IMG/VR virus record: IMGVR_UViG_3300022752_000016
Reading direction: 5' to 3' (one strand)
Length of the DNA: 64,000 nt
Origin: a virus
Taxonomy: Duplodnaviria; Caudoviricetes
Below are positions 3,299 through 25,556 of the stretch, one piece after another. The notes beneath the pieces are model-generated. The model was not told the DNA's origin, searched no databases, and saw only the letters and a program-made list of their open reading frames with translations. The first letter of the stretch is position 1, and each line of letters opens with the position of its first letter. A program made the translations under genes and the position numbers.

Positions 3299-3306
3299 TA
3301 TAAATA
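3299..3306 (+). promoter_or_regulatory. Late promoter TATAAATA heading the glycosylation island
   Basis: Perfect T4 late consensus, followed by SD AGGAG and ATG 3325. Confidence 0.65.
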
Positions 3307-3324
3307 TTAGCAGGAGATTAATAT

Positions 3325-3633
3325 ATGAACACAGAGCAATTATTAAAAGATTCTAAAGCAAGATTTAGTCATAATTCTGCAAAATTTGCACTTAGTGAAA
3401 AATATGCAAATAAATTAATTATAGTTGAACAACATGGATTATGGAAGATTACTCCTGAAATTATTGCATATCTTAATTCTTTAGGTAATACAGAAGAAAC
3501 AATTATATTGGACGAATATAAAGATCCTAAAAAGGTTAAAGTTACTAATTTAAGAAAAAAATTTACAGAAGTTTATAATGAAGTTATGCAAGAATGGTAT
3601 AATGAATGGTCTATGTTAGAAGGTAAAAAATGA
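3325..3633 (+). CDS. Hypothetical protein
   Basis: 102-aa ORF with SD; coupled to next gene. Confidence 0.6.
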   Translation: MNTEQLLKDSKARFSHNSAKFALSEKYANKLIIVEQHGLWKITPEIIAYLNSLGNTEETIILDEYKDPKKVKVTNLRKKFTEVYNEVMQEWYNEWSMLEGKK

Positions 3634-4433
3634 AAGGAGTCGTGATTTTTTGCCATAATAACGGTAGTTTTGATTATTTAGCAATGGCAAAGTTTTGTGC
3701 TAAACGTGTAAATAAATTTTTAAGTTTACCTGTAACATTAATTACAGATAAAGAAACATTTAAAAAAAGCAAAACATATTTGTTTGATAAAGTTTTATTT
3801 GTTGAACCAAATAAAAATAACTTTAAAGAAAATACAATTTGGATAAACAAGGATAGATTTAAAGTTTTTGAATTAACTCCATATGATGAAACAATATTAT
3901 TGGATAGTGATTACATCGTAAATTCAACAAAATTATTAAAAACTTTTGATATTTGTAAAGACATTTGTGTGCATAATAGTGCCTCATATATAATGCAACC
4001 TAAATTGGAACAAGAATTAGTAAGTCCATATATGGATGTAACAGCTTGGGCCACTGTAATTACTTTTCAAAAAACTAAAAAGGCTAAACAGGTATTTGAA
4101 GTAATGGAAATGATTCAAAAAAATTATAATCATTACGCTAATTTACATAATTTTATAGCAGGAACATTTAGGAATGATTATGCATTAACATTGGCACTAA
4201 GAATAGTTGATGGACATTTACCTAATATAGCAAATTACATTCCTTGGAACTTACTACACGTAGGTAGAAACACAGTAGTTTATAACTTAAATGATGATAT
4301 TAACAATAATGAGTTTTTGTTTATGTTTGACAACTGGCGTAATAATAAAATAAAAAAAGAATATATTACACTTAAGAATTTAGATTTTCATTTAATGAAT
4401 AAAAACAATTTAAGTGAGCTTATAAATGAATAA
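3630..4433 (+). CDS. GT-A fold nucleotide-diphospho-sugar transferase-like protein
   Basis: YDETILLDSDY DxD motif, GVVIF N-terminal strand, late HxxK motif. Confidence 0.65.
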   Translation: MKGVVIFCHNNGSFDYLAMAKFCAKRVNKFLSLPVTLITDKETFKKSKTYLFDKVLFVEPNKNNFKENTIWINKDRFKVFELTPYDETILLDSDYIVNSTKLLKTFDICKDICVHNSASYIMQPKLEQELVSPYMDVTAWATVITFQKTKKAKQVFEVMEMIQKNYNHYANLHNFIAGTFRNDYALTLALRIVDGHLPNIANYIPWNLLHVGRNTVVYNLNDDINNNEFLFMFDNWRNNKIKKEYITLKNLDFHLMNKNNLSELINE

Positions 4434-5226
4434 TGGGTTTATAGTTTTAGCACAAAATACCGATAAAGTAGATTATGTAACTTGCGCCGAAGCATTGGCA
4501 ATATCTATTAAACGAGTTATGCCAGATGCTAAAATAAGTCTTATATCAAATAATAATACCAATTATAAACATTGGGACAAAGTAATACCATTACCATATG
4601 GCGATTTGGTACCAAATAGCAAGTGGAAATTACAAAATGATTGGCAAGTGTATGAAGCAAGTCCATATGATTACACTATCAAACTTGAAGCGGACATGTT
4701 TGTGCCAAGATCGCTAGAACACTGGTGGGATATTTTGAAAAATCACGACTTAGTAATTTCTACAACTATAAGAAATTTTAAGCAGGAAATTTCTAATGTA
4801 AAAGTATATAGAAAATTTATAACAGATAACAATTTGCCTGACACATATAATGGATTAACTTATTTTAAAAAATCTACGTTAGCAAATGAATTTTTTAAAA
4901 CTGTAGAAAACATATTCAAAGAATGGGAAAAATACAAAAAAATTTTAAAATGTAATATAAATGAAGAACCAACCACTGATTTTGTATATAGTATTGCGTC
5001 ACATATATTAGGCAAAGAAAAAACTACTTTACCTTCATTTAATGATTTTAGTATGGTTCACATGAAACCGTTTATAAATGAATTTGGGATACAAAATTGG
5101 ACAAAAATATTTACTTATGAACTTTTACCTCATGTTTTTAGAATAACCACGTATCCACAACTTTATCCCTTCCATTATATAGAAAAATCTTTTGCAAAGG
5201 AAATAATTGATGCCTACGGAAAATAA
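4426..5226 (+). CDS. GT-A fold glycosyltransferase-like protein (paralogue of 3630..4433)
   Basis: SPYDYTIKLEADM (ExD variant), GFIVLA N-terminus, VHMK motif. Confidence 0.6.
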   Translation: MNNGFIVLAQNTDKVDYVTCAEALAISIKRVMPDAKISLISNNNTNYKHWDKVIPLPYGDLVPNSKWKLQNDWQVYEASPYDYTIKLEADMFVPRSLEHWWDILKNHDLVISTTIRNFKQEISNVKVYRKFITDNNLPDTYNGLTYFKKSTLANEFFKTVENIFKEWEKYKKILKCNINEEPTTDFVYSIASHILGKEKTTLPSFNDFSMVHMKPFINEFGIQNWTKIFTYELLPHVFRITTYPQLYPFHYIEKSFAKEIIDAYGK

Positions 5227-5545
5227 AGATTTTATTGTTATATATGAAGCACCTGTTATTGAAAAACCTGAATTTAGATTATATTATGATGAAAAAGGTA
5301 ATGTCTTATCATACACTACTGATAAACTTGAAGGTAATTATATTGTCATAGATGCTGCAACTTTTGCTGAAGGGCGACCTGATGTAATTGTATTAGACAA
5401 TAAAATAACTAAAAAAAGTTTGACAACAATTTCTTCTAAGTATGTTCCTAGTGATAATCCTGAAGTTATTTGCCATAAGGATGATATATCAATAATAACT
5501 AATAAAAAAGGAAAAGGTTGGGTAATAAAGTTTTATGAATTATGA
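5207..5545 (+). CDS. Hypothetical protein
   Basis: 112-aa ORF overlapping both neighbours in operon. Confidence 0.55.
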   Translation: MMPTENKDFIVIYEAPVIEKPEFRLYYDEKGNVLSYTTDKLEGNYIVIDAATFAEGRPDVIVLDNKITKKSLTTISSKYVPSDNPEVICHKDDISIITNKKGKGWVIKFYEL

Positions 5546-6497
5546 TAACATTATTGATGTTGCTGATTTAGACTGTATATATCTTAGTTACGACGAACCG
5601 CAAAAAGAAGAATTTTGGCTCAAAATAAAAAATATAGTACCATGGGCTAAAAGGGTGGATGGCGTAAAAGGAAGTGACGCTGCACACAAAGCAGCAGGCG
5701 AAAAAAGTGATACAGAAAGATTTATATTAGTCGATGGTGATAATATGCCAGATGAATCTTTTTTTAATATTCAACTTGATTTTACAGATAAAGATTTAAT
5801 TTACCATAAAGCACAATTTCGTTGGAAGGCAATTAACAGTATAAATGGTTTATGTTATGGTAATGGCGGAATGAGTTCATGGACTAAAAGTTATGTAAAA
5901 AATATGAAAACACATGAAAATCAAACTGAGGGTGACTTAACACGAGTAGTTGATTTTTGTATGGACAGTAGTGATAACATATATTGGGCAATGTGGGATT
6001 GTTATTCTGTTACATATCCAAATTATACACCTTTTCAAGCATGGCGTGCAGGTTTTCGTGAAGGCGTTAAAATGAGTCTTTACAGAGGCGAAAAACCTAA
6101 TGTACAAGATTTTAAAAACAATGTATCATCACGTAATCTTAATAATCTTACTGTTTGGCATAATGTTGGTGCAGATGTTGAAAATGGTTATTGGGCTATA
6201 TATGGTGCACGATTAGGTACTTATATGACTTTATTATCCAATTGGGACCCTAAAAATGTACAGTGGTTCGATAATTACATAGATATGTGGGAAGAATACA
6301 AGAATCTAGATGCAAATGAGTTAAATAATTCAATTGAGAATATAGGTAACATATTGTATGACAAGTTAGATTTGCCTATGTGTATTCTATCACCTTCACA
6401 AAGTAAATTCTTTAAAAGACATTTAAATTCTAATAGGTATAATCGTGGACCTTTAATAAGAGAAATGGATGTTATTCGCCAAATTGAAGGCTGGTAA
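5535..6497 (+). CDS. Glycosyltransferase-like protein (GT-A, DGD motif)
   Basis: RVDGVKG...FILVDGDN...NGLCYGNGG...AWRAGFREGVKM; homologous to C-terminal domain of the 1942-aa protein. Confidence 0.65.
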   Translation: MNYDNIIDVADLDCIYLSYDEPQKEEFWLKIKNIVPWAKRVDGVKGSDAAHKAAGEKSDTERFILVDGDNMPDESFFNIQLDFTDKDLIYHKAQFRWKAINSINGLCYGNGGMSSWTKSYVKNMKTHENQTEGDLTRVVDFCMDSSDNIYWAMWDCYSVTYPNYTPFQAWRAGFREGVKMSLYRGEKPNVQDFKNNVSSRNLNNLTVWHNVGADVENGYWAIYGARLGTYMTLLSNWDPKNVQWFDNYIDMWEEYKNLDANELNNSIENIGNILYDKLDLPMCILSPSQSKFFKRHLNSNRYNRGPLIREMDVIRQIEGW

Positions 6498-7882
6498 TGA
6501 TTAATGAAGTAAGTACAATAAAAACCATAATACCTATTACAAACGAAATAAGTCAAACATTTTGTTACGCTAAATGGTATCATACAACAATTTACTTACA
6601 TATGGGAGAAACCCATAGTTGTTATCATCCTGCTCCCCATAAAGTTCCTTTGCAAGAATTAGAAAATAATCCAAGTGCGTTACACAATACAATTCATAAA
6701 AAAAAAGAACGTGCATTAATGCTTGTCGGTGAAAAACCTTCAGGTTGTCAATATTGTTGGAATGTCGAGTCTTTAGGTTCTGATTATGTTAGTGATAGGC
6801 ATATTAGAAATGCAAGTTTACATAGAAATAACTTTTACAACGAAATTACGAGCCAACCTTGGGATCAAAATATTACCCCAGATTATATAGAAGTGAGTTT
6901 TAGTAATGAATGTAATTTTAAATGTGGTTATTGCCATCCTAAACATTCAAGTAGTTATTACAATGAAATAAAATCATATGGGCCTTACTTAGATGTTTCT
7001 AATCATGCAAATAATATCAATTTATTTAAAATTCATAAGGAAGAGGATAACCCATATATTGAGGCATGGTGGAAATGGTGGCCTGAACTTAGCAAAAAAC
7101 TTAATATTTTACGAATTACAGGTGGTGAACCTCTTTTACATAAAAGCACATGGAGATTATTTGAACATTTAAATAAAGAGCCTAAACCAAATTTAGAATT
7201 AAATTTAAATAGTAACTTTGGAGCTAAAAATCAATTTATTTTAAAATTATCGGAAAACGTTAATAATCTTTTAAATAATAACAAAATAAAATCATTTAAA
7301 ATTTTTTCTAGTATGGAAACTTGGGGCGATAGGGCTGAATATATACGTACTGGTTTAGATATTAATTTATGGGAAAAGAATTTAGATTCTTACCTACAAA
7401 TTACAAAAAATCCAATTACTTTTATGTGTACTTTTAATATTCTTACAGTAACTTCTTTTATATTATTTTTAGAAAAAATATTAGAATGGAGATATAAGTA
7501 TAAACACTTGTTTAATAACTATGAGGATAAAAAACAAAAAATTAAATTTGACACTCCATACCTAAAAGAACCATTACAATTTGATATGCTTATATTACCA
7601 AAAAAAGAATTTTTGCCTTATTTTGATAAAATATTAAAATTTATATCTGATCATAAAGATGATAGTGATTTTACAAAATTTAGTGAATTAGAATATGAAA
7701 GGTTTCGTAGGATTCGTGATTACTTTGCCACAAAAGAATACTCAATTGAAAAAATTGTAGAAGGAAGAAATGATTTTTACAATTGGTTTAATCAATATGA
7801 CGAACGAAGGAATTTGAATTTTAAAAAAACTTTTCCTGAAATGGTTAATTTTTTTGAAGAGTCTGGAAATCTTACTAAGTAA
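6497..7882 (+). CDS. Radical SAM protein with extra N-terminal Cys cluster
   Basis: CNFKCGYC (CxxxCxxC), ITGGEP motif, N-terminal FCYAKW/SCYH/GCQYCW. Confidence 0.85.
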   Translation: MINEVSTIKTIIPITNEISQTFCYAKWYHTTIYLHMGETHSCYHPAPHKVPLQELENNPSALHNTIHKKKERALMLVGEKPSGCQYCWNVESLGSDYVSDRHIRNASLHRNNFYNEITSQPWDQNITPDYIEVSFSNECNFKCGYCHPKHSSSYYNEIKSYGPYLDVSNHANNINLFKIHKEEDNPYIEAWWKWWPELSKKLNILRITGGEPLLHKSTWRLFEHLNKEPKPNLELNLNSNFGAKNQFILKLSENVNNLLNNNKIKSFKIFSSMETWGDRAEYIRTGLDINLWEKNLDSYLQITKNPITFMCTFNILTVTSFILFLEKILEWRYKYKHLFNNYEDKKQKIKFDTPYLKEPLQFDMLILPKKEFLPYFDKILKFISDHKDDSDFTKFSELEYERFRRIRDYFATKEYSIEKIVEGRNDFYNWFNQYDERRNLNFKKTFPEMVNFFEESGNLTK

Positions 7883-7886
7883 TAAA

Positions 7887-8624
7887 ATGAATAATTTAAC
7901 AGAAATATTTTCACAAAATGTGTTAATCGATGAAAATACAAAAATTCTAGATGATCCTGTACGACATTGTATAAAAAAGAATTTTTTACCATATGATGTA
8001 GCGATTGGGATGTATAATGAAATTAAACAAATTGATAATACTTTATTAAAACATTTCACCAGAAATGGTAGTAATATGTATGAACTTATAGGAAATTATA
8101 ATGTGATTCCAATCGCATTTAACCTAATAGGTTATCTAAATAGCGGAAGTTTTCTCAAATCACTAGAAGATGTTACAGGTATTAAAGGATTGATATCCGA
8201 TCCATATATTTTAGGTGCTGGATATAGTAAGATTTATAATGGAGATAGAATAAAAGTTCATACTGATTTTAATTGGAATGATAACTTAAAATTACATAGA
8301 GCATGTTCTTTAATTATTTACCTAAGCCCTGATTGGAAAGAAGAGTATGGTGGAGCGTTAGATTTTTACGACAAATTTGGTGAAAATATTGTATCAACTG
8401 TGCCATGTTTATTTAATACCTGTTTAATTTGGAACTATAATAAATTTGGATTTCATGGCTGTACACAACCAGTACAATGTCCAAGTGATAAATTTAGAGC
8501 AGCATTTAGATTATTTTACTATACCAGTAATAGCACTTTTAAAGAAGATGATCCTCCTCACAGAAGCCAATATTGGAAAGATAACAAAACAAATTTACCC
8601 TATGACATAAAAGGATATAAATGA
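7887..8624 (+). CDS. 2OG-Fe(II) oxygenase (prolyl-hydroxylase-like)
   Basis: KVHTDFN (HxD) ... FHG ... R facial-triad pattern, YLSPDWKEEYGGALDF; start moved to ATG 7887. Confidence 0.75.
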   Translation: MNNLTEIFSQNVLIDENTKILDDPVRHCIKKNFLPYDVAIGMYNEIKQIDNTLLKHFTRNGSNMYELIGNYNVIPIAFNLIGYLNSGSFLKSLEDVTGIKGLISDPYILGAGYSKIYNGDRIKVHTDFNWNDNLKLHRACSLIIYLSPDWKEEYGGALDFYDKFGENIVSTVPCLFNTCLIWNYNKFGFHGCTQPVQCPSDKFRAAFRLFYYTSNSTFKEDDPPHRSQYWKDNKTNLPYDIKGYK

Positions 8625-9826
8625 AAATTTATACAAAAACAAACGCACACCATGGTTTTTTTGATAGGAAACATTTTTTTGATTTAAAAACATGTAAACA
8701 AGAAAATAATTGTATATATTGGTACGATCAACATGATTCTTCGGTTAGAGGAACACCTTTTCGTGATTTTTTAAATCATGAAAATTGGATTCATTGTTCT
8801 AAAGATCCTACAGCAAAAATTTTAATTTTTTATCCAGATGAGTATTATAATAGGCTTGATGTAGATGATTGGGCAAATACAATTAAAAAATATAATATAA
8901 ATCCAAATCAAATTTATATAGTTGCAATAGATGAAAATTTTAAGAATTGGACAATAAAAACTCTTGAATCATACCAAATAACTGGGGTTAACATTACATC
9001 TTATAATTATTTGCTTCAACGTGTTCAATACTCAGTAGATGCCTATAATATCAATTTAAATATTAATTTTACTAAAAAATTTAGTGCACTTAGTAGAAAT
9101 TACGGAATGTTATCAAAACCATATAGATTATTTTTATTTACAGAACTTTTTTGTAATAACTTACTGGATGATTTTTATTTTACATTCAATATTATAAATC
9201 CATATGGAGAAATTATAACCTATTCAAAAGATAAAATTAAAAATGATTTGGTAGTTGATTTTAATTATACTTTGACTCCCGCTTTACATAATTGGGTGGA
9301 CAATATGCCTTACCAACTTGAAATTGAAAATGTTTTAGATAAAATGTCTAATACCATTTATAAATATATTAATGAATCAGCAATTCATATTACCGTAGAG
9401 TCACACTTTGATCCTTTTTGGATGTTCAGAGGACATGCACACGAAAATATACAAGCATTTAGTCCTGCCTTTCCAACAGAAAAAACCTATAAACCAATTG
9501 CATTAAAAAAACCATTTATTATTTTTTCAACTCCTTATTTTTTACAAGAATTTAAAACTTTGGGATTTAAAACCTTTAGCCCTTATATTGACGAAGATTA
9601 TGATTTAATAGTAAATAACATTGATAGGACTAAGGCTATTGTTAAAGAAGTGCAAAGATTAAATTCTTTATCACAAAATGATTTTATTGCTTTATTAAGA
9701 AATTGTCAAGAAATTTGTGAACACAATTTTAACGTTTTTAAACAAATTTGTAGTAATAATATTTTTATAAATAATTTTGATTTTATAAATCATCTTAAAG
9801 ATAATGGTCAACAAATTCATTTTTAA
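8621..9826 (+). CDS. Putative glycosyltransferase-like protein, EKT(Y/F)KPI family paralogue 1
   Basis: C-terminal TEKTYKPIA..KPFII...LGFKTF..YIDEDYD block shared with 9804 and 12280 ORFs. Confidence 0.45.
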   Translation: MKIYTKTNAHHGFFDRKHFFDLKTCKQENNCIYWYDQHDSSVRGTPFRDFLNHENWIHCSKDPTAKILIFYPDEYYNRLDVDDWANTIKKYNINPNQIYIVAIDENFKNWTIKTLESYQITGVNITSYNYLLQRVQYSVDAYNINLNINFTKKFSALSRNYGMLSKPYRLFLFTELFCNNLLDDFYFTFNIINPYGEIITYSKDKIKNDLVVDFNYTLTPALHNWVDNMPYQLEIENVLDKMSNTIYKYINESAIHITVESHFDPFWMFRGHAHENIQAFSPAFPTEKTYKPIALKKPFIIFSTPYFLQEFKTLGFKTFSPYIDEDYDLIVNNIDRTKAIVKEVQRLNSLSQNDFIALLRNCQEICEHNFNVFKQICSNNIFINNFDFINHLKDNGQQIHF

Positions 9827-13674: not shown

Positions 13675-13675
13675 T

Positions 13676-18235: not shown

Positions 18236-18237
18236 TT

Positions 18238-19719
18238 ATGCAATATATAGGAATTTCAAGTCATTTTCATGACGCTGCAATAACTCTTTTGTCCAATAAT
18301 GGGGATATATTATTTGCAGGACATAGTGAAAGATATAGTAAAACTAAACATGATTCACTATTAAATATTGATTTAATTAATGATCTGTTATACTATGACA
18401 ACAAATATGATAAGTTTTCAATTCATTATTATGAAAGACCTTTTATAACACAATTAAGACAAATTAGAGCAGGTCAAAAACTTGATTTTGTTACAACTAA
18501 AAGTCGTATAGGCAAACCAATTTTACAAATGTTAGGCAATCCTGATATAAAAAATTATAATCACCATTTAAGTCATGCAGCCGCGGGTTTTCAAACCAGT
18601 CTATTTGATAATGCTACAGTTGTTATAATAGATGCAATTGGAGAATTCGATACAATATCAATTTATGATGCTTATTATAATGATAAAGGATATGCAAAGT
18701 ATAAAAAACTATATAGTCAAAAATATCCTAATAGCATTGGATTATTTTATAGTGCAATGACTAAAAGAGTTGGATTGAAACCTTTAGATGAGGAATATAT
18801 TTTAATGGGCATGTCAGCTTATGGGATAGATAAACATAGTGGGGAAATGTTAAAATTCTTTAATGATATAAAAAATATTGAAATGAATACTAATTTGCAT
18901 ATAGGGGTAGATGATAATTTTTTATTTGGTGCTGATTTAATGGATATTGCATGTAGTACTCAAGTGGTTGTTGAGCAGTTGATTGAAATAGTTATGAGTA
19001 AAGCAAAATTACTAGGACGAAGTAATAATCTAGTTTATGGAGGAGGCGTGGCTTTAAATTGTTTAGCAAACAGGAAATTAGGAAATTTTTTTGATAAAAT
19101 TTGGATAATGCCGAATCCTGGTGATGCAGGGAGTAGTCTAGGTGCTGCTGCATTAGGATATGGAAAAAGATTAAAATGGGAAAATGCATTTTTAGGATAT
19201 GATATTAAAGGTGTGTATCCAATAGATAATATTCTTAAAGAACTAAACAGTAATAAAATAGTAGGTGTTGCCAATGGGCGTGCAGAATTTGGACCAAGAG
19301 CCTTAGGTAATCGAAGTTTATTAGCTGATCCACGCGGTAATTTAATTAAGGATAAAGTTAACGAGATTAAGCGTAGACAAAAATTTAGACCATTTGCTCC
19401 TGTGATACTTGAGGAATATGTAGATGAGTATTTTGTAATGCCAAAAGGATTTAGTATCAGTCCATATATGCAAGTAGTTGCAAAATGTAAACAACCTGAA
19501 TTATTACCAGCTATTATACATCATGATGGTACGAGTAGGGTACAAACAGTAGGTAAGGACAATACGGGAATAAGAAAACTTTTAGAAAAATGGTATGATT
19601 TAACAAAATGTCCTTTGTTATTAAATACATCACTAAACATACGCGGTGAACCTATGGTTAATGATAAAAAGGATGCAGTTAGATTTGAAAATCTGTACGG
19701 AGTTAAAGTTTTTTCATAA
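18238..19719 (+). CDS. Carbamoyltransferase (CmcH/NodU family)
   Basis: HDAA..., HHLSHAA metal site, GGVALNC, GDAGSSLG, RAEFGPRALGNRS, LLNTSLN. Confidence 0.92.
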   Translation: MQYIGISSHFHDAAITLLSNNGDILFAGHSERYSKTKHDSLLNIDLINDLLYYDNKYDKFSIHYYERPFITQLRQIRAGQKLDFVTTKSRIGKPILQMLGNPDIKNYNHHLSHAAAGFQTSLFDNATVVIIDAIGEFDTISIYDAYYNDKGYAKYKKLYSQKYPNSIGLFYSAMTKRVGLKPLDEEYILMGMSAYGIDKHSGEMLKFFNDIKNIEMNTNLHIGVDDNFLFGADLMDIACSTQVVVEQLIEIVMSKAKLLGRSNNLVYGGGVALNCLANRKLGNFFDKIWIMPNPGDAGSSLGAAALGYGKRLKWENAFLGYDIKGVYPIDNILKELNSNKIVGVANGRAEFGPRALGNRSLLADPRGNLIKDKVNEIKRRQKFRPFAPVILEEYVDEYFVMPKGFSISPYMQVVAKCKQPELLPAIIHHDGTSRVQTVGKDNTGIRKLLEKWYDLTKCPLLLNTSLNIRGEPMVNDKKDAVRFENLYGVKVFS

Positions 19720-19727
19720 GTAGACTT

Positions 19728-22700
19728 ATGATTAGAGATGTTTTTTATTATGGCAAGAAGCCTAACATTCATCCAAGAGAAAGATTTGCTAAAAACCTTG
19801 AAGAAGCAAGAGAGTTATCAAATACAGAGCATTTTTGGATAATAAATGAATTTTGTGATTATAAAAATTTTGATTGGGATTTCGATTACGAATTTTTACC
19901 AGACGAGGATGTATGGGCGCAGGATCATATAAATATATGGCCAAGTTTATATCAAAAAGATAGTGGAACATGGTTAGTTCCAAATAATAATAGTTTAGTG
20001 AGAATTTACAGAAATGATGTACAACCTGTAGATAGAAAAATAATTAAAGATAATTGGATTATTTATTCACAAATAGACAGTAAAAAATTTGATTTAAAAT
20101 GGCATCCTGATCCACTTGATCCGCCCTTTATTTATGTATGGGGGAATAAATTTATACCAGCAGAACTGCAACCTACAATAGAATATTATACACCTAGTGC
20201 TGTTGAACGAAAATACATGGGTGAAGTTGAGGTATTACCACAAATGGAACGTTGGGTAATGGTTCAAGATATAACTGAGGATTTTGATTTAACTTGGAGA
20301 CCTGATCCAAGAGAACCTCCGTACATTTACGTTTGGGGAAACAAATATATACCTGGAGAGTTACAATCTACAATTGAATATCATACTCCTAATGCAATCA
20401 ATAAAAAATATATGGGTAATGCACCTGTTTTACCTGATAAAAATTGGAAAATTATACAGGAAATTGATAAAACTAAATTTGATTTATCTTGGAGACCTGA
20501 TCCACGTGAACCTCCATACATTTATACTTGGGGAAATAAGTTTATTCCTGCTGAAATAATGCCTACAATTCAATACTTATGTCCAAACGCTACTGAACAT
20601 AAGTACATGCAAGAACCATTAGAGGTATTACCTGAATATGAAAAATGGGTAGAAGTACAGGCTATCGATAAAACTAAATTTGATTTATCTTGGAGACCTG
20701 ATCCACGTGAACCTCCATATATTTACGTTTGGGGAAACAAATATATACCTGGTGAATTATTACCTACATTGCAATATAATTGTATAGGAGCAAAAGAATA
20801 CAAATATATGGGTGATGTTGAGGTTATTCCAGAACACGAAAAATGGGTAGAAGTACAGGCTATCGACAAAACAAAATTTGATTTATCTTGGAGACCTGAT
20901 CCACGTGAACCTCCATACATTTATACTTGGGGAAATAAATATATACCTGGTGAATTAATGCCAACTTTAGAATATAGATGTATTGGAGCAACAGAACGCA
21001 AATATATGGGTGATGTTGAGGTTATTCCAGAACACGAAAAATGGGTCGAAATTCAACTAATTGATAAGACAACATTTGACATGACATGGAGACCTGATCC
21101 AAGAGAACCTCCATATATTTACGTTTGGGGGAATAAGTTTATTCCTGCAGAATTAATGTCAACTTTAGAATATAGATGTATTGGAGCAAAAGAATACAAA
21201 TATATGGGTGATGTTGAGGTTATTCCAGAACACGATAAATGGGTCGAAGTGCAGTTAATTGATAAGACAAAATTTGACATGACATGGAGACCTGATCCAA
21301 GAGAACCTCCATATATTTACGTTTGGGGGAATAAGTTTATTCCTGCAGAATTAATGCCAACTTTAGAATATAGATGTATTGGAGCCACTGAGCGAAAATA
21401 TATGGGAAATATTGATGTATTGCCTGAGTTTAATAGATGGGTCGAAGTTCAAACTATTGATAAGACTAAATTTGATATGACATGGAGACCTGATCCAAGA
21501 GAACCACCTTATATCTATGTATGGGGAAACAAATATATACCAGGCGAATTAAAATCAACAATTGAATACCATACCCCTAATAGTACTGAACGTAAGTATA
21601 TGGGAGATGTTGATGTTTTACCAGAAACAGAACGTTGGAATATTGTTCAAAAACCTAAGGATTTTGATTTAACATGGAGACCTGACCCAAAAGAACCACC
21701 ATACATTTATGTATGGGGCAATAAATATATACCTGGGGAGATACAATCTACAATAGAATATCATACACCTGACGCTCAAGAAATAAAATATATGGGTGAC
21801 ATAGAAGTTGTACCATATTATGAACATTGGAATATTGTGCAAGAAGTCGGTGATGATTTTGATCTTTGTTGGAGACCTGATCCAAGAGAACCACCATACA
21901 TTTATGTATGGGGGAACAACTATATACCTGGCGAGGTTAAAGCTACAATTGAATATCATACACCTAATAGTATTGAACGCAAGTATATGGGTATTGCCAG
22001 TGTTAAACCTGACAAAAATTGGAAAATTACACAGGATATTGATATTGAAAAATTTGATTTATGTTGGAGACCTGATCCTAGGGAGCCTGCATACATTTAT
22101 ACTTGGGGTAATAAGTATGTAAGTGCTGAACTAGTACCAACCATTGAATATTATACTCCTAACGCCACTGAACGTAAGTATATGGGTGAAGTAGACGTTA
22201 TTCCTGAATTTGATCGTTGGGTAGAAGTACAACCAATTGACAAATCAACATTTGATATGACATGGAGACCTGATCCAAGAGAACCACCATACATTTATGT
22301 ATGGGGTAATAAACATATTCCCGCCGAACTAAAACCCACGCTAGAATATTATACTCCAAACGCAACAGATAGAAAATATATGGGTAATGTTGAAGTTTTA
22401 CCAATAAACGAAAATTGGAAAATTACCCAAGAAGCTATAAACTTTGATTACACATGGAGACCGGACCCAAGAGAACCTGATTATATCTATGTATGGGGTA
22501 ACAAGTATATACCTGGCGAGTTAAAACCTACAATTGAATACATTTGTCCTAACGCTATTGAAAAAAAGTATATGGGGAATGTTGAAGTAGCCTCTGAATG
22601 GGACAAATATAGAATACTGATCCCTGTTGATAAGAATAGTTTTGATTTTAGTTGGAGACCTGATCCAAGAGAGCCTCCCTATATTTACGTTTGGGGCAAT

Positions 22701-25556
22701 CAAACTAATAGTGCCACTATAGAACCTACGATAGAATATCATTGCACAGGTGCTGTTGAACGCAAATACATGGTTGACAGAGTAGCTACAACGTTACCAG
22801 ATATTGAAAAATTTAAAATTTTAATTTCAGTAAAAGATTTTGATTTTAGTTGGAGACCAGATCCTCATAGTCCTCCTTATATCTACGTGTTTGGTAACCA
22901 ATGGCATGATGCAATGACTGAACCTACAGTAGAATATCATGTACCTGGTGCGAAAGAAAAAAAATATATAACAGATATTATAGCGAAGGTAAGTCCTACA
23001 CAGGAAAATTGGAAAACACTTATCCCTGTTGTAGATTTTGATTATAGCTGGAGGCCTAACCCACACAGTACTCCATACATTTATGTATTTGGAAATCAAT
23101 GGAATCCTATTGAATTAGAGCATACAGTTGAATACCATACACCTGGGGCAAAAGACTACAAATATATAACAGATATTGTAGCAAATCTTAAACCAACTAA
23201 CACTGAAAAACATTGGAAAAGGTTGTTACCTGTTGAAAGTTTTGATTATAGTTGGAAACCTGATCCAAGAGAACCTGCATTAATATATGTATTTGGAAAT
23301 AAATGGAATGATTCTAAGACTGAGCCTACTATTGAATATCATTGTGAAGGTGCTACAGAACGAAAATACTTAGATTTTCCTGTAGCTAAACCCACAGTTG
23401 AATTTAAATATTGGTCCATATCAAATAATTACGATCTAGAATCATTTGATTTTAGTTGGAGACCTAATCCGCATAGTCCACCACAAATTTATCAATGGGA
23501 AAATAATGGTCCAAGATATAATGTACCAGGTGCTACAGACGTTGTATTAATGAAAAGAATTGATACTGACTATGCACCGAAAATTAATAAATATTTTATT
23601 AAAACTAACCTTACCGATTTGATTAGTGAACATCCAAATGAAGTATTTTGGGCTTTAAATCCTGATCTAAATTATGATAAGTTTGACTTTACATGGAAGC
23701 CTAATAAAGAAAATTTTACACACATAAATGTTTTTGGTAATGAATATAGTAAAAATACCCACACATATTATATAAACGGGCCAATGTATAACTTGGGATA
23801 TAGGCAATATAATTATATAAATAATCAAAAATTTAGTGGGGATACAAACCTTTCAATGTTTTTTATTGATAGGGGTAATGATTATAGTCAAAAAAGATTC
23901 GATGCACTTAAAACAAAGTACCCACAATTACAAAAAACAAGATTTCTAAATTCTTGGGTAGATACTATTAATCGTTGCACTCAAAAATCTTATACAAAGT
24001 TCCTTTGGGTTTTAAGTAGCGAATTAGATTATAGTGAATTTGAGTTTGACTTTTATCCTAGTCCATGGCAAGAAAAAATGGTACATGTGTTTGGTACACA
24101 ATGGAGTCATTGGGGTAATACATACCTAATAAACAAGGAAACATTTGCAAATGATACTAAGTATATAAAAATTATTGAACATTTGTCATGTTTAAATTTT
24201 GTCAAAACTAAACGTGCAAAAGCTGTGGACATTATTTATGATATTGTCTATATTGACCACAAAAATACAAAAGTGGATAGTAATAAATTTAAATATGTGA
24301 TTGAGTATGAGGATAATTATTATAAAACTTTTAAAAAATTAATTGATGTTTTACCTAAAAAGAAAGAGCATTATATTTGGATAATAAGTTCAATCTGTGA
24401 TTATACAAACTTTAATTTTACTTACATTTGTGACCCATTTGCTAAAGAACAATTACACGTTTTTCCAAGCGATAAACAAAAATATGGTGACACATTTTTT
24501 GTAGACGTTAATAATTTACGTGAACAAATTGAAAATATTGAAAAACTTAAAAATTTTACAAAAATAAATTTTAATAATCATCAAACAGTAAAAAGATTAG
24601 ATTGTCCTAAATTTGTAATAGAGGATGATACTTTTGTAAATTCAATTAATGTTGAATTTAATTTTCCCTATGCAAATTTTGTAACGGTAGATAATTGTAC
24701 ATTAAATGTTGTGGACGATGATCCAATCAATTTGTGGGAAGAAGAAACAAAAAATATTATAGTGCAAAGTACAGGTAATACAAATATTATTATACCCAAA
24801 GAAGTAAAGAAATATGTAAAAAAAGAATTGTATGATTATCCTTATATCACTAAACGTGATAAATTACAATCAAGTTTTCCATTAGATATTGTTTTTTTAA
24901 GTAATGGTGAAAAAAATGCTGATGCAAACTATGAACATCTATTATCTGTAATAAAAAATAAACCAAATAGAGTAATAAGAGTTGATGGTATTAATGGTAG
25001 AAAAAATGCAAATTACGCAGTTGCAGATATTAGTAATACTCCTTGGATGTTTGTAGTATTTGCAAAGTTAAAAGTAAAAGAAAACTTTGATTGGGATTGG
25101 CAACCTGATAGAATGCAATTACCAAAACATTATATTTTTTATGCTAGGAATCCTGTTAATGGTTTGTTTTACGGACACCAAGCAATGATAGCATGGAATA
25201 AAAATATAGTTTTACAAACACAAGGAGTAGACTTAGATTTTACAATGGAAGGTAACCATGAAGTTGTTAAGATAGATAGCGGAACACCTTATTATAATAC
25301 AGATGAATATAGCACATGGAGGACTGCTTTTAGAGAGGTTATAAAATTGAAGTATTACAACAATAAAGAAAGTCAGCATCGTTTAAAAGTATGGTCAAGT
25401 ATAGCAGAAGGTGATTTTGCCCAATTTAGTTTACAAGGAGCAAAACATGCTATAGATTACTTTAATGCGGTTGATGGTAATATTGATAAATTAAAATTAA
25501 GTTACGAATGGGCTTGGTGTAAAGAATATTTTCTTAAAAAGTATGATAGAATTTAA
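19728..25556 (+). CDS. 1942-aa tandem-repeat protein with C-terminal glycosyltransferase-like domain
   Basis: 18 clear ~60-aa repeats (FDxxWRPDPREPPYIYVWGN...) plus degenerate copies; C-terminal DIVFLSNGE...RVDGING...WRTAFREVIKL domain. Confidence 0.8.
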   Translation: MIRDVFYYGKKPNIHPRERFAKNLEEARELSNTEHFWIINEFCDYKNFDWDFDYEFLPDEDVWAQDHINIWPSLYQKDSGTWLVPNNNSLVRIYRNDVQPVDRKIIKDNWIIYSQIDSKKFDLKWHPDPLDPPFIYVWGNKFIPAELQPTIEYYTPSAVERKYMGEVEVLPQMERWVMVQDITEDFDLTWRPDPREPPYIYVWGNKYIPGELQSTIEYHTPNAINKKYMGNAPVLPDKNWKIIQEIDKTKFDLSWRPDPREPPYIYTWGNKFIPAEIMPTIQYLCPNATEHKYMQEPLEVLPEYEKWVEVQAIDKTKFDLSWRPDPREPPYIYVWGNKYIPGELLPTLQYNCIGAKEYKYMGDVEVIPEHEKWVEVQAIDKTKFDLSWRPDPREPPYIYTWGNKYIPGELMPTLEYRCIGATERKYMGDVEVIPEHEKWVEIQLIDKTTFDMTWRPDPREPPYIYVWGNKFIPAELMSTLEYRCIGAKEYKYMGDVEVIPEHDKWVEVQLIDKTKFDMTWRPDPREPPYIYVWGNKFIPAELMPTLEYRCIGATERKYMGNIDVLPEFNRWVEVQTIDKTKFDMTWRPDPREPPYIYVWGNKYIPGELKSTIEYHTPNSTERKYMGDVDVLPETERWNIVQKPKDFDLTWRPDPKEPPYIYVWGNKYIPGEIQSTIEYHTPDAQEIKYMGDIEVVPYYEHWNIVQEVGDDFDLCWRPDPREPPYIYVWGNNYIPGEVKATIEYHTPNSIERKYMGIASVKPDKNWKITQDIDIEKFDLCWRPDPREPAYIYTWGNKYVSAELVPTIEYYTPNATERKYMGEVDVIPEFDRWVEVQPIDKSTFDMTWRPDPREPPYIYVWGNKHIPAELKPTLEYYTPNATDRKYMGNVEVLPINENWKITQEAINFDYTWRPDPREPDYIYVWGNKYIPGELKPTIEYICPNAIEKKYMGNVEVASEWDKYRILIPVDKNSFDFSWRPDPREPPYIYVWGNQTNSATIEPTIEYHCTGAVERKYMVDRVATTLPDIEKFKILISVKDFDFSWRPDPHSPPYIYVFGNQWHDAMTEPTVEYHVPGAKEKKYITDIIAKVSPTQENWKTLIPVVDFDYSWRPNPHSTPYIYVFGNQWNPIELEHTVEYHTPGAKDYKYITDIVANLKPTNTEKHWKRLLPVESFDYSWKPDPREPALIYVFGNKWNDSKTEPTIEYHCEGATERKYLDFPVAKPTVEFKYWSISNNYDLESFDFSWRPNPHSPPQIYQWENNGPRYNVPGATDVVLMKRIDTDYAPKINKYFIKTNLTDLISEHPNEVFWALNPDLNYDKFDFTWKPNKENFTHINVFGNEYSKNTHTYYINGPMYNLGYRQYNYINNQKFSGDTNLSMFFIDRGNDYSQKRFDALKTKYPQLQKTRFLNSWVDTINRCTQKSYTKFLWVLSSELDYSEFEFDFYPSPWQEKMVHVFGTQWSHWGNTYLINKETFANDTKYIKIIEHLSCLNFVKTKRAKAVDIIYDIVYIDHKNTKVDSNKFKYVIEYEDNYYKTFKKLIDVLPKKKEHYIWIISSICDYTNFNFTYICDPFAKEQLHVFPSDKQKYGDTFFVDVNNLREQIENIEKLKNFTKINFNNHQTVKRLDCPKFVIEDDTFVNSINVEFNFPYANFVTVDNCTLNVVDDDPINLWEEETKNIIVQSTGNTNIIIPKEVKKYVKKELYDYPYITKRDKLQSSFPLDIVFLSNGEKNADANYEHLLSVIKNKPNRVIRVDGINGRKNANYAVADISNTPWMFVVFAKLKVKENFDWDWQPDRMQLPKHYIFYARNPVNGLFYGHQAMIAWNKNIVLQTQGVDLDFTMEGNHEVVKIDSGTPYYNTDEYSTWRTAFREVIKLKYYNNKESQHRLKVWSSIAEGDFAQFSLQGAKHAIDYFNAVDGNIDKLKLSYEWAWCKEYFLKKYDRI
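20080..23520 (+). repeat. Intragenic tandem array of ~180-nt units (tggagacctgatcca core)
   Basis: Near-identical DNA units, most similar between ~20480 and 21550. Confidence 0.9.

What the first reader, a model, noticed from the sequence alone, without database searches (positions are those of the whole stretch)
3299..25556. 22-kb late-expressed glycosylation and tailoring island next to tail genes
Seen: about 20 co-oriented, mostly stop/start-overlapping genes behind TATAAATA boxes. They include 3 GT-A-like proteins, 3 EKTFKPI paralogues, 3 SGNH-like proteins, 2 radical SAM enzymes, a 2OG oxygenase, an epimerase, a carbamoyltransferase and a giant GT-repeat protein. Known: virion glycosylation occurs in giant viruses and some mycobacteriophages. 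Inference: the phage builds a heavily decorated (acylated, carbamoylated, oxidised) glycan on its virion or the host surface. No primary DNA-modifying enzyme is present in the window.
Basis: partly seen in the sequence, partly recalled or inferred. Interest (0 to 1): 0.7.

Follow-up and report, generated by a model that had tools for sequence, protein, structure and literature searches.

The report
Phage sugar-building operon behind tail fibres
An uncultured freshwater giant phage carries, directly behind its short tail-fibre genes, a conserved 22-kb operon of about seven sugar-transferring enzymes and nine sugar-editing enzymes. It almost certainly builds a heavily decorated sugar chain, most likely on a phage protein, but nobody has shown what it makes.

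Summary
Window 3299-25556 has 17 co-oriented, tightly packed genes. The family calls check out: two GT8-like GT-A enzymes, one new DxD GT-A, two N-twitch radical SAM enzymes, a P4H-type 2OG oxygenase, a UDP-hexose-epimerase-type SDR, three SGNH-like proteins and a NodU/TobZ-type carbamoyltransferase. New here: the three "EKTFKPI" paralogues are GT-B glycosyltransferases closest in fold to GT10 fucosyltransferases. The 1942-aa protein is not a string of GT domains. It has about 19 tandem 65-aa repeats and a C-terminal GT-A-like domain whose DxD is replaced by V-F-A-K.

No island protein has a membrane segment. The order g455-fibA-fibB-small protein-GT8-GT8-x-GT-A-rSAM recurs in dozens of divergent phage contigs. 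Among cultured phages I found it only in Ralstonia jumbo phage RsoM2USA. The GT-A plus rSAM pair also sits in glycan clusters of Bdellovibrio-like bacteria.

A glycan-building role is well supported (about 0.8). The acceptor is open: virion fibre protein about 0.45, host envelope about 0.25, DNA under 0.1. Similar GT and radical-SAM cassettes beside tail fibres are noted in pelagimyophage surveys. This scan has flagged the same cassette class in at least eight other genomes. I rate it a new variant of a known kind, with uncharacterised chemistry.

The parts
1106..2320 (+). fibA: short tail-fibre protein with a C-terminal intramolecular-chaperone autoproteolysis domain. It is a conserved upstream neighbour of the cassette.
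   Evidence: Pfam Peptidase_G2 IMC domain at 8.8e-8. PHROG tail-fibre and virion protein hits. Homologues sit upstream of the cassette in L007-L011, L056, L058, L062 and RsoM2USA.
2326..3276 (+). fibB: fibre-like protein of 316 aa, 58% Ser/Thr/Gly/Asn/Ala. A member of this family lies close upstream of the cassette's first gene in the loci I mapped with upstream sequence, directly so in most. It is the candidate acceptor.
   Evidence: Composition and all-vs-all BLAST of the upstream ORFs. Gene maps. No Pfam or PHROG family.
3299..3306 (+). TATAAATA box 26 nt upstream of the first cassette gene. Further boxes lie at 9766, 11254 and 18227.
   Evidence: Placement is enriched (8 of 22 boxes in 3% of positions). 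Function as a T4-type late promoter is inferred, not tested.
3325..3633 (+). Small conserved protein of 102 aa, the first gene of the cassette. Function unknown; it could be a fibre chaperone or an adaptor.
   Evidence: It aligns end to end with its positional equivalents. phmmer gives hits in 19 loci, including RsoM2USA.
3630..4433 (+). GT8-like retaining-type GT-A glycosyltransferase (GT8a), DxD = D-S-D.
   Evidence: The profile of 20 relatives hits glycogenin-1 at 3.5e-6 with the DxD aligned.
4426..5226 (+). GT8-like GT-A paralogue (GT8b). The first Asp of the DxD is Glu here (E-A-D).
   Evidence: PHROG 1903.
5207..5545 (+). Protein of 112 aa, unknown function, in a variable slot of the cassette.
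   Evidence: Relatives only in L024, L057 and L058. No Pfam family.
5535..6497 (+). New DxD GT-A glycosyltransferase. It has an N-terminal GT-A domain (residues ~4-167, V-D-G-D) and a helical C-terminal domain.
   Evidence: AF2 model pLDDT 82.6. Foldseek and VIA give Z 10.4-8.3 to B4GalT, B4GALNT1, WrtF, STIV A197 and PBCV-1 A64R. D67 and D69 are invariant. At least 8000 unnamed relatives exist.
6497..7882 (+). Radical SAM enzyme 1, with an N-terminal twitch domain.
   Evidence: NF033640 at 8e-86, 288.6 bits against cut-off 170. C139/C143/C146, four N-terminal Cys and GGEP are invariant.
7854..8624 (+). 2OG-Fe(II) oxygenase of the prolyl-hydroxylase type.
   Evidence: Pfam 2OG-FeII_Oxy_3 at 5e-12. 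Best solved relatives are OGFOD1 (3e-4) and a prolyl 4-hydroxylase (0.045). H-T-D and a distal His are seen in the sequence.
8621..9826 (+). GT-B glycosyltransferase-fold protein 1 (EKTYKPI).
   Evidence: Paralogue of 12259-13674. The family fold comes from the model of 12259-13674.
9804..11243 (+). GT-B glycosyltransferase-fold protein 2 (EKTFKSI), basic with pI 9.5.
11279..12280 (+). NAD-dependent extended SDR of the UDP-hexose or UDP-hexuronate 4-epimerase type.
   Evidence: Pfam Epimerase at 4e-45. Best solved relative is UDP-glucose 4-epimerase 4zrm at 8e-42.
12259..13674 (+). GT-B glycosyltransferase-fold protein 3 (EKTFKPI). This is the one modelled.
   Evidence: AF2 pLDDT 85.7. All 50 top Foldseek PDB hits are GT-B. 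VIA gives H. pylori alpha1,3-FucT Z 12.7, T4 BGT 12.3 and FUT9 11.2.
13676..14713 (+). SGNH-like protein 1.
   Evidence: Ser26, Gly112, Asn118 and His323 are invariant in 20 relatives. Lipase_GDSL hits are weak, in 3 of 20 relatives.
14715..15734 (+). SGNH-like protein 2, a paralogue of protein 1.
   Evidence: 27% identity over 358 aa, E 7e-34.
15670..16635 (+). SGNH-like protein 3. It is a distinct subfamily that keeps D-x-x-H. The true start is probably downstream of the GTG at 15670.
   Evidence: Alignment. Weak NCBIfam GDSL_LA_2486 hit at 0.005.
16632..18146 (+). Radical SAM enzyme 2, with an N-terminal twitch domain.
   Evidence: NF033640 at 1e-90, 304.6 bits. 38% identical to enzyme 1.
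18238..19719 (+). O-carbamoyltransferase of the NodU/CmcH/TobZ family.
   Evidence: Pfam Carbam_trans_C at 2e-50 and Carbam_trans_N at 6e-31. Solved relatives are NovN 7e-49, GdmN and TobZ.
19728..25556 (+). Soluble acidic protein of 1942 aa. It has about 19 tandem 65-66-aa repeats, then three degenerate modules, then a C-terminal GT-A-like domain (about residues 1712-1939) with V-F-A-K in place of V-D-x-D.
   Evidence: Homologues follow the carbamoyltransferase in L024, L012, L025 and L027. L025 shares the V-F-A-K change.

Best explanation
This is a self-contained cytoplasmic glycan-assembly and tailoring operon of a jumbo myophage.

Proposed mechanism. Host UDP-sugars are remodelled by the SDR epimerase and, I infer, by the two N-twitch radical SAM enzymes. 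Six soluble glycosyltransferases then add sugars stepwise to an acceptor in the cytoplasm: two glycogenin-like GT8, one new DxD GT-A and three GT10-like GT-B. The SGNH-like proteins and the carbamoyltransferase add or trim O-acyl and O-carbamoyl groups. The P4H-type oxygenase hydroxylates either the acceptor protein or a sugar.

Likely acceptor. The most likely acceptor is a phage structural protein, above all the Ser/Thr/Gly-rich fibre protein fibB encoded directly upstream. The 1942-aa repeat protein is a second candidate. The product would then be a sugar-coated fibre.

Shown versus inferred. Shown: the folds and families, intact catalytic motifs, solubility, and conserved synteny with the fibre genes. 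Inferred: every reaction, the order of steps, the timing and the acceptor.

My odds. The island builds or edits a glycan: about 0.8. The acceptor is a virion protein: about 0.45. The confidence given for this explanation is for the whole statement, acceptor included.
For: Sugar-handling families. The GT8-like profile hits glycogenin, a protein-priming GT, at 3.5e-6 with the DxD aligned. The 5535 model has a GT-A fold at Z about 10; capsid-glycosylating PBCV-1 A64R is among the matches at Z 8.9. The EKTFKPI model has a GT-B fold with a GT10 enzyme on top. The epimerase matches UDP-hexose 4-epimerase at 8e-42. The carbamoyltransferase matches the sugar and antibiotic O-carbamoyltransferases NovN and TobZ.

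Fusions. Relatives of the GT-B family are fused to an epimerase, a methyltransferase or a UDP-glucose dehydrogenase in other phages.

Bacterial context. The GT-A plus N-twitch rSAM pair sits among four GT2 genes and a DegT sugar aminotransferase in a Bacteriovoracaceae genome.

Solubility. No island protein has a hydrophobic segment typical of a membrane span. There is no flippase, polymerase or initiating phosphotransferase.

Synteny. The order g455-fibA-fibB-small-GT8a-GT8b-x-GT-A-rSAM is kept in phage contigs only 25-60% identical, of 33-44% GC, and in RsoM2USA.

Other points. The 2OG enzyme belongs to the protein prolyl-hydroxylase type. TATAAATA boxes sit just upstream of cassette genes, and of genes in the tail-gene region and just upstream of the terminase gene.
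Against: No glycan, glycoprotein or transcript data exist for any phage with this cassette. The RsoM2USA paper leaves all these genes as hypothetical, and its virion proteomics covered only the major bands.

Bacterial O-antigen glycosyltransferases are also soluble, so the lack of membrane proteins does not exclude the host envelope. Linkage to fibre genes could instead reflect matching of receptor and receptor-masking specificities, or a general hypervariable 'host recognition cluster' (PMC7029224).

The 2OG oxygenase, the SGNH genes and the carbamoyltransferase are absent from several cassette versions, so they cannot be central to acceptor choice.

The box at 18227 ends only 3 nt before its ATG, which is too close for a T4-type late promoter with a leader.
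Confidence: 0.45

Rival explanations
1. Host-envelope remodelling. The soluble transferases act at the inner face of the membrane on the host's own undecaprenyl-linked O-antigen or capsule units, or on core LPS. The host export machinery then displays an altered surface. This blocks superinfection, or stops progeny from sticking to debris. The tie to fibre genes would reflect matching of receptor and mask.
For: This is the reading given for GT8 and radical SAM cassettes in the tail-fibre 'host recognition cluster' of pelagimyophages (PMC7029224). The GT-A plus rSAM pair lies in a surface-glycan-type cluster in Bacteriovoracaceae, with GT2 x4, DegT and a weak PMT_2 hit. GT8 enzymes are common in LPS synthesis (established knowledge). 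The phage also carries other envelope genes: a porin at 26329-27342 and a lipid-remodelling pair noted by an earlier agent (not checked here).
Against: The boxes in front of the cassette are of the late type, which suits exclusion poorly. No membrane-bound partner is present (Gtr-like flippase, Oac-type acyltransferase, ligase). A 17-gene pathway with six transferases is far more than known serotype-converting phages use. The prolyl-hydroxylase-type enzyme and the 1942-aa repeat protein have no role in this scheme.
Confidence: 0.25
2. DNA hypermodification. The GT-B and GT-A enzymes glycosylate a hydroxylated or otherwise functionalised base in phage DNA, and the other enzymes tailor that sugar, as with T4 glucosyl-hmC and the more complex glycans of other phages.
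For: T4 beta-glucosyltransferase (Z 12.3) and alpha-glucosyltransferase (Z 10.4) match the GT-B model about as well as fucosyltransferases do. One paralogue is strongly basic, pI 9.5 and net +23. An earlier agent reports a deazaguanine island with its own sugar transferase elsewhere in this genome, so this phage does modify its DNA.
Against: The window's only thymidylate-synthase homologue scores 1.5e-103 against the ThyA profile and keeps the PCH and DxxLGxPFN motifs of dUMP-methylating enzymes. No Tet/JBP or TGT family hit appears in the 137-kb record, although that record is only about 40% of the genome. The position behind fibre genes and late-type boxes is unlike known DNA-modification genes. 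The reported deazaguanine island has its own transferase. GT-B similarity is at fold level only.
Confidence: 0.07
3. A diffusible or peptide-bound natural product. The operon makes a carbamoylated, radical-SAM-edited glycoside, or a glycosylated small phage peptide, that acts on the host or on competitors rather than decorating the virion.
For: The nearest solved carbamoyltransferases (NovN, GdmN, TobZ) are all antibiotic-tailoring enzymes. Twitch radical SAM enzymes known from the literature act on aminoglycoside and nucleoside sugars (my knowledge, and an earlier agent's note). An earlier agent proposed a conserved short peptide as acceptor in a related cassette (not checked here).
Against: The window has no scaffold-forming enzyme (cyclitol synthase, NRPS/PKS, nucleoside-forming enzyme) and no exporter. 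I found no room for a hidden conserved peptide gene in the short intergenic gaps. The strict linkage to fibB is left unexplained.
Confidence: 0.1

Closest known systems
Tail-fibre 'host recognition cluster' of pelagimyophages and cyanomyophages, with GT8 glycosyltransferases and radical SAM cassettes (Zaragoza-Solas et al. 2020, PMC7029224)
   Same: Both are aquatic T4-like or jumbo myophages. In both, GT genes (GT8 the commonest) and radical SAM gene cassettes are interleaved with or follow the tail-fibre genes. Neither has been characterised.
   Different: That paper treats the region as hypervariable and assigns it to host O-chain change. Here the cassette has a fixed gene order kept across very divergent phages. 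It includes two GT families with no Pfam model. None of the five cassette proteins I searched (a GT-B, rSAM 2, the DxD GT-A, GT8b and, at near-identity only, the island DNA) matched any of 50,697 GenBank phage records other than RsoM2USA.
Ralstonia jumbo phage RsoM2USA, ORF346-358 (MG752970)
   Same: It keeps the same core in the same order: fibre-like ORF355, a small protein, two GT8-like genes, one more gene, the DxD GT-A, an N-twitch rSAM and a second DxD GT-A, with an SDR nearby. Identities are 24-39%.
   Different: It lacks the GT-B paralogues, 2OG oxygenase, SGNH genes, carbamoyltransferase and repeat protein. All its genes are annotated hypothetical and are not discussed in the paper.
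Chlorovirus PBCV-1 capsid glycosylation (A64R and partners) and mycobacteriophage virion glycosylation (Freeman et al. 2023, cited in PMC12619734)
   Same: In both, virus-encoded soluble glycosyltransferases decorate virion proteins in the cytoplasm without host membrane machinery. A64R is among the structural matches of the 5535 model at Z 8.9.
   Different: Those systems have two to about six transferases and no radical SAM enzymes. Here glycosylated virions have not been shown, and the sequence families are unrelated beyond fold.
NCBIfam NF033640, N_Twi_rSAM (twitch domain-containing radical SAM protein)
   Same: Both rSAM proteins score well above the family cut-off and keep all seven cluster cysteines.
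   Different: The family has a name but, to my knowledge, no known reaction. Membership says nothing about function.
GT10 alpha1,3-fucosyltransferases (H. pylori FucT, human FUT9)
   Same: They are the top structural matches, at Z 12.7 and 11.2. The invariant Arg, Glu and Glu-Lys of the phage family lie in the C-terminal nucleotide-sugar half, where GT10 has its R and (Y/V)TEK motif (my recollection of the motif).
   Different: No HMM-level similarity to any solved GT10 chain or to Pfam Glyco_transf_10. T4 BGT scores within 0.5 Z. The donor sugar is unknown.
T4 alpha- and beta-glucosyltransferases (DNA glucosylation)
   Same: Phage-encoded GT-B enzymes, with Z 12.3 and 10.4 to the EKTFKPI model.
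   Different: No hydroxymethyl-pyrimidine pathway is seen in the window. The genomic position and box type are late and structural.
Skp1 hydroxyproline glycosylation of Dictyostelium and Toxoplasma (prolyl hydroxylase, then GT-A enzymes including a glycogenin-like GT8)
   Same: Both combine a P4H-type oxygenase with glycogenin-like GT8 enzymes acting in the cytoplasm. The Skp1 galactosyltransferase 6mw5 appears at E 1.9 below the glycogenins.
   Different: This is an analogy only. The oxygenase is missing from several cassette versions. No hydroxyproline acceptor has been identified.

Membership tests
GT8 (glycogenin/LgtC-type retaining GT-A) for 3630-4433 and 4426-5226 | GT-A Rossmann-like N-terminal half with a DxD metal site that aligns to GT8 | tested here: met
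   The profile of 20 relatives hits glycogenin-1 at 3.5e-6, and 'ivlDtDmlvl' aligns to 'vfmDaDtLVL'. The second Asp of the motif is invariant and the first nearly so: the window's 4426-5226 has Glu there (E-A-D).
GT8 (glycogenin/LgtC-type retaining GT-A) for 3630-4433 and 4426-5226 | Recognised by the curated family model over the whole domain | tested here: not met
   Neither window protein has a Pfam or NCBIfam hit. The PDB profile match covers only profile positions 13-106. I therefore call them GT8-like, not filed members.
GT-A fold glycosyltransferase for 5535-6497 | GT-A fold with a conserved DxD | tested here: met
   AF2 pLDDT 82.6. VIA gives Z 10.4, rmsd 3.7 A over 143 residues to a beta-1,4-galactosyltransferase, and many GT-A enzymes score at Z above 8. 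V-D-G-D has both Asp invariant. Nucleotidyltransferases of the same fold also match at Z about 9, so the transferase type rests on the DxD.
GT10 fucosyltransferase for the three EKTFKPI proteins | GT-B fold | tested here: met
   AF2 pLDDT 85.7. All 50 top Foldseek PDB hits are GT-B enzymes. VIA ranks H. pylori FucT first at Z 12.7 over 290 residues, rmsd 5.6 A.
GT10 fucosyltransferase for the three EKTFKPI proteins | Sequence membership (Pfam Glyco_transf_10, or an HMM match to solved GT10 chains) | tested here: not met
   No Pfam hit in 27 relatives at E up to 1. No PDB hit with the full-length or the C-domain profile at E up to 10.
GT10 fucosyltransferase for the three EKTFKPI proteins | Conserved Arg plus (Y/V)TEK-type donor-binding motif | tested here: inconclusive
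   R265, E351, E364 and K365 are invariant in 27 relatives. The correspondence to the GT10 motif rests on my memory of that motif, not on a residue-level structural alignment.
NF033640 N_Twi_rSAM | Score above the curated cut-off, a CX3CX2C cluster, and an N-terminal four-Cys twitch domain | tested here: met
   288.6 and 304.6 bits against a cut-off of 170. C139/C143/C146 and C23/C42/C84/C87 are invariant in 15 relatives.
SGNH/GDSL hydrolase-acyltransferase for 13676, 14715 and 15670 | Block I Ser, block II Gly, block III Asn, block V His | tested here: met
   S26, G112, N118 and H323 are invariant or nearly so in 20 relatives.
SGNH/GDSL hydrolase-acyltransferase for 13676, 14715 and 15670 | Recognised by curated family models; Asp of the block V DxxH | tested here: inconclusive
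   Only 3 of 20 relatives reach Lipase_GDSL or Lipase_GDSL_2, best E 6e-4. 15670 has a weak NCBIfam GDSL hit at 0.005. No PDB hit. D-x-x-H is kept in the 15670 subfamily only. No structure was predicted.
NodU/CmcH/TobZ O-carbamoyltransferase | Both the Kae1-like and the YrdC-like domains | tested here: met
   Carbam_trans_N at 108.6 bits (cut-off 24) and Carbam_trans_C at 171.1 bits (cut-off 27). NovN at 7e-49. About 35-70 N-terminal residues are missing relative to the profile.
Extended SDR nucleotide-sugar epimerase/dehydratase | Pfam Epimerase, a GxxGxxG NAD site and a YxxxK catalytic pair | tested here: met
   154.5 bits. GVAGFLG and Y-G-I-A-K are seen in the sequence. The best solved relative is a UDP-hexose 4-epimerase. 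Epimerase versus decarboxylase or dehydratase was not resolved.
Prolyl-hydroxylase-type 2OG-Fe(II) oxygenase | Pfam 2OG-FeII_Oxy_3 above cut-off and an HxD...H iron triad | tested here: met
   47 bits against a cut-off of 27. H-T-D and a later F-H-G are in the sequence. OGFOD1 at 3e-4. The substrate, protein or other, was not tested.
Virion protein glycosylation system | Glycan covalently bound to a virion protein and dependent on the phage transferases | not testable with these tools
   This needs glycoproteomics of virions. No such data were found for RsoM2USA.
Phage DNA glycosylation system (T4 type) | A pathway that makes a hydroxylated or otherwise acceptor base | tested here: not met
   The thymidylate synthase homologue has ThyA motifs. 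No Tet_JBP or TGT hit was found in the 137-kb record. The Tet_JBP control rang nowhere, and the record is about 40% of the genome, so absence is provisional.

The most novel reading that the evidence does not exclude
The cassette is a complete, membrane-independent protein-glycosylation system. On this reading a jumbo phage of a Gram-negative host coats its own short fibres, or the 1942-aa repeat protein, with an oligosaccharide. The sugars of that oligosaccharide are rewritten by N-twitch radical SAM enzymes, a family with no known reaction, and capped with carbamoyl and acyl groups. Glycogenin-like GT8 enzymes would prime the chain on the protein. In some versions a prolyl-hydroxylase-type enzyme would create the attachment site. 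This would be the first fibre glycosylation described in such phages, and it would give entry to new radical sugar chemistry.
Probability: 0.35. Interest if true: 0.8.

Novelty: new variant of a known kind. Interest (0 to 1): 0.58.

Why it matters
Virus-encoded glycosylation is known for chloroviruses, mimiviruses, a few mycobacteriophages and T-even DNA. Here is a much larger toolkit with a fixed gene order that is very common in aquatic phage metagenomes: one of its GT families alone has at least 8000 sequence clusters, all unnamed. Several of its parts have no assigned reaction, namely two GT families without a Pfam model and the N-twitch radical SAM family.

If the product sits on the fibres, it would bear on host recognition, on protection of virions from proteases and grazers, and on how fibre specificity evolves. 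The work also singles out one cultured phage, RsoM2USA, in which the question can be tested directly.

Tried and rejected
- Near-identity DNA search of the island against GenBank phages: no match.
- Single-sequence back-translated search for the EKTFKPI family in viral contigs: nothing. It worked only with the paralogue alignment.
- Sequence-level searches of the EKTFKPI family: single protein, 27-member profile and C-domain profile against PDB, and members against Pfam, gave only chance hits. The GT-B assignment therefore rests on the predicted fold.
- Profiles of the 5535 family and the SGNH-like family against PDB: only chance hits.
- Atlas look-up of the repeat region of the 1942-aa protein: no usable hit and no stored model.
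- Complex prediction of the DxD GT-A with the adjacent radical SAM enzyme, chosen because the pair is adjacent in both phages and Bdellovibrio-like bacteria: no verdict, score 0.00, controls not run. This is evidence neither for nor against binding.
- Sigma-70-type promoter and terminator scans inside the island: at chance level.
- Host guess from the phage porin by pattern scan of genome contigs: no relative found.
- Net charge as a clue to DNA binding: mixed, with one basic and two acidic GT-B paralogues. Not informative.
- Rejected idea: that the giant protein is a chain of active GT domains. Only the last domain resembles the DxD GT-A family, and it has lost the DxD.

Full report
**Setting.** The window is bases 32001-96000 of a 137-kb IMG/VR virus record that CheckV rates about 40% complete. 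Its large terminase is 48.6% identical to that of the Pseudomonas PA5oct group and of Sinorhizobium phage Phosso, so this is an uncultured jumbo myophage. GC is 26-29% across most of the island and about 32-40% in most of the rest of the window. Upstream of the island lie a 7256-aa ORF that ends at window 274 and three further genes. These are g455, fibA (1106-2320, with a Peptidase_G2 intramolecular-chaperone domain) and fibB (2326-3276, 58% Ser/Thr/Gly/Asn/Ala).

**Checking the observation.** From 3325 to 25556 there are 17 ORFs of 102-1942 aa, all on the + strand. Eleven of the 16 junctions overlap, and the other gaps are 1, 1, 8, 35 and 91 nt. Sigma-70-like promoters and terminators inside the island are at chance level, which fits one or a few long transcripts.

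TATAAATA is not over-represented in the window: 19 found against 18.4 expected. It is, however, strongly mis-distributed. In the 137-kb record, 8 of 22 + strand copies lie 8-45 nt upstream of a + strand start codon, a zone that holds 3% of positions. By my binomial arithmetic that is about 2e-7, ignoring the AT-richness of spacers. Four of the eight are in the island (3299, 9766, 11254, 18227). Others precede genes beside the baseplate and terminase genes. That these are T4-type late promoters is an inference from T4 biology. The box at 18227 is too close to its ATG to fit that model.

**Gene identities confirmed by curated models.**
- Two radical SAM enzymes belong to NCBIfam NF033640 at 288.6 and 304.6 bits against a cut-off of 170. 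The CX3CX2C cysteines, four N-terminal twitch cysteines and GGEP are invariant in 15 relatives.
- The 2OG-Fe(II) oxygenase is of the prolyl-hydroxylase type: Pfam 2OG-FeII_Oxy_3 at 5e-12, with OGFOD1 (3e-4) the best solved relative.
- The extended SDR is closest to UDP-hexose and UDP-hexuronate 4-epimerases (Pfam 4e-45; 4zrm 8e-42).
- The carbamoyltransferase has both domains of the NodU/TobZ family. Its nearest solved relatives are NovN, GdmN and TobZ.

**Gene identities that needed profiles or models.**
- 3630-4433 and 4426-5226 are paralogues. A profile of 20 relatives hits glycogenin at 3.5e-6 with the DxD aligned, so they are GT8-like GT-A enzymes.
- 5535-6497 has no Pfam hit. An AlphaFold model from 15 relatives (pLDDT 82.6) shows an N-terminal GT-A domain and a helical C-terminal domain. 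VIA gives Z 10.4 to 8.3 against many GT-A transferases, including PBCV-1 A64R, STIV A197 and mimivirus R699. Both aspartates of V-D-G-D are invariant.
- The three 'EKTFKPI' proteins share no sequence-level similarity with anything named. Their model (pLDDT 85.7) is nonetheless a GT-B glycosyltransferase. All 50 best Foldseek PDB hits are GT-B enzymes. VIA ranks H. pylori alpha1,3-fucosyltransferase first (Z 12.7), then T4 beta-glucosyltransferase (12.3) and human FUT9 (11.2). In other phages the same domain is fused to an epimerase, a methyltransferase or a UDP-glucose dehydrogenase, which ties it to nucleotide-sugar metabolism.
- The three SGNH-like proteins keep the Ser, Gly, Asn and His block residues. 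Only 3 of 20 relatives reach the GDSL Pfam models weakly, so I call this assignment probable.

**The 1942-aa protein.** It is soluble and acidic. It contains about 19 tandem 65-66-aa repeats with the core FDxxWRPDPREPPYIYVWGN. The DNA period is 195-198 with about 70% matches, so the array is old. Three degenerate modules follow, and then a C-terminal domain 28% identical to 5535-6497.

In that last domain the metal-binding V-D-x-D is V-F-A-K. The homologue in locus L025 has the same change. Shorter homologues in other cassettes (224-1057 aa) keep V-D-G/A-D. It is therefore not a chain of active transferases. It may be a scaffold, a sugar-nucleotide binder or an acceptor.

**Conservation.** A pattern search with the GT-B alignment brought 53 viral loci. 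About 25 of them share much of the cassette in the same order.

A search of species-representative genomes with the GT-A alignment brought 44 loci. Four of these are clearly phage contigs binned into MAGs: L056, L058, L062 and L065. They repeat the synteny from the fibre genes (fibA/fibB; g455 too in L056 and L058) through the small protein, GT8a, GT8b, a variable gene, the GT-A and rSAM genes, at 33-44% GC. In the loci I mapped with upstream sequence, a fibB-family member lies close upstream of the small first gene, directly so in most. The small protein itself is conserved in at least 19 loci.

Among 50,697 GenBank phage records, only Ralstonia jumbo phage RsoM2USA matched the cassette proteins I searched. 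It matched the rSAM, GT-A and GT8b queries, and the GT-B query found nothing. It carries the core in the same order after a fibre-like gene. Its paper leaves these genes unannotated. The GT-A family alone has at least 8000 clusters in metagenomes, all unnamed, on contigs up to 351 kb.

**Bacterial context.** Lower-identity hits (27-39%) lie on megabase contigs of Bdellovibrionia and Bacteriovoracaceae, where the GT-A again neighbours N-twitch-like radical SAM genes. In one such locus the pair sits among four GT2 genes, a DegT sugar aminotransferase and a weak PMT_2-like membrane transferase. This independently places the GT-A plus rSAM pair in glycan synthesis. Related phage cassettes add more radical SAM genes and a sugar-nucleotidyltransferase/cupin gene.

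**What it most likely does.** I put about 0.8 on a glycan-building and tailoring pathway that runs in the cytoplasm. It has six intact transferases, a nucleotide-sugar epimerase, tailoring enzymes of sugar type and no membrane protein.

The acceptor is not determined. I favour a phage structural protein at about 0.45, for four reasons:
- the fixed linkage to fibB across deep divergence;
- the late-type boxes;
- the glycogenin-like, protein-priming type of the GT8 pair;
- the protein-hydroxylase type of the oxygenase.

Each of these is weak alone.

The main rival, at about 0.25, is the published reading for similar regions of pelagimyophages: alteration of the host O-chain (PMC7029224). O-antigen transferases are also soluble, and a receptor mask would co-evolve with fibres. 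DNA modification is unlikely at about 0.07. The thymidylate synthase is canonical, and no Tet/JBP or TGT gene is in the record. An earlier agent places a separate deazaguanine island with its own transferase elsewhere in the genome (not verifiable in the 137-kb record). The T4 BGT fold match keeps DNA from being excluded. A diffusible glycoside or glycopeptide gets about 0.1.

**Novelty.** GT and radical SAM cassettes beside tail fibres have been remarked on in metagenomic surveys. This scan has already reported the same cassette class in at least eight other genomes, with similar conclusions. What this window adds:
- a version with few radical SAM enzymes but three GT-B paralogues, three SGNH-like genes and a carbamoyltransferase coupled to a giant repeat protein with a DxD-less GT-A domain;
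- the fold assignments of the two unnamed GT families;
- the conserved placement of a fibB-family gene just upstream of the cassette;
- RsoM2USA as the one cultured entry point.

I rate it a new variant of a known kind, of moderate to high interest because the chemistry and the target are both untested.

Noticed in passing
window 26329-27342 (+): Phage-encoded outer-membrane porin: Pfam Porin_4 at 1.3e-40, a signal-peptide-like N-terminus and a C-terminal Phe. This points to a Gram-negative host, perhaps a betaproteobacterium. A pattern scan of genome contigs found no close relative.
   Followed up: partly
G000:C1:10504-32274 (ends at window 274): A single 7256-aa ORF lies directly upstream of g455, fibA and fibB, and is preceded by ORFs of 1121, 1019 and 735 aa. 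It is presumably a giant fibre or adhesin. Weak relatives head the same synteny block in L055, L056 and L058.
   Followed up: no
L056, L058, L062, L065 (genome contigs): Contigs filed under Haliscomenobacter, Legionellales, Neomarinimicrobiota (335 kb) and Bdellovibrionales MAGs carry the fibre genes followed by the cassette in phage order (g455 too in L056 and L058). They are almost certainly jumbo-phage contigs mis-binned into bacterial MAGs.
   Followed up: partly
L067, L070, L072, L074, L076, L081-L083, L090 (Bdellovibrionia/Bacteriovoracaceae contigs, several of 0.5-3 Mb): True bacterial homologues of the DxD GT-A, in most of these loci next to N-twitch-like radical SAM genes. In L076 the pair lies within a GT2/DegT glycan cluster. 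This suggests where the phage core came from, or went to.
   Followed up: partly
window 24860-25556 (giant protein residues ~1712-1942) and L025:7285-9594: A conserved subfamily of the GT-A domain has V-F-A-K in place of the metal-binding V-D-x-D. The change is shared by two divergent phages, so it is probably a selected non-catalytic or metal-independent form rather than decay.
   Followed up: partly
window 36013-36861 (+): Canonical thymidylate synthase (Pfam 1.5e-103, with PCH and DVFLGLPFN motifs). It argues against a hydroxymethyl-pyrimidine DNA in this phage.
   Followed up: partly
window 27585-29681 (+): Protein of 698 aa with PHROG matches to an unknown family (residues 15-234) and to phage protein kinases (residues 273-561), plus a weak nucleotidyltransferase hit.
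   Followed up: no
L015:185-811 and L015:836-4336: In this relative the fibB-family gene is duplicated, and one copy has grown to 1166 aa with a glycine-rich domain. The fibB slot is therefore itself variable in length.
   Followed up: no
window 15670-15734: The 65-nt overlap between SGNH-like genes 2 and 3 comes from the longest-ORF GTG start. The real start of gene 3 is probably further downstream.
   Followed up: no
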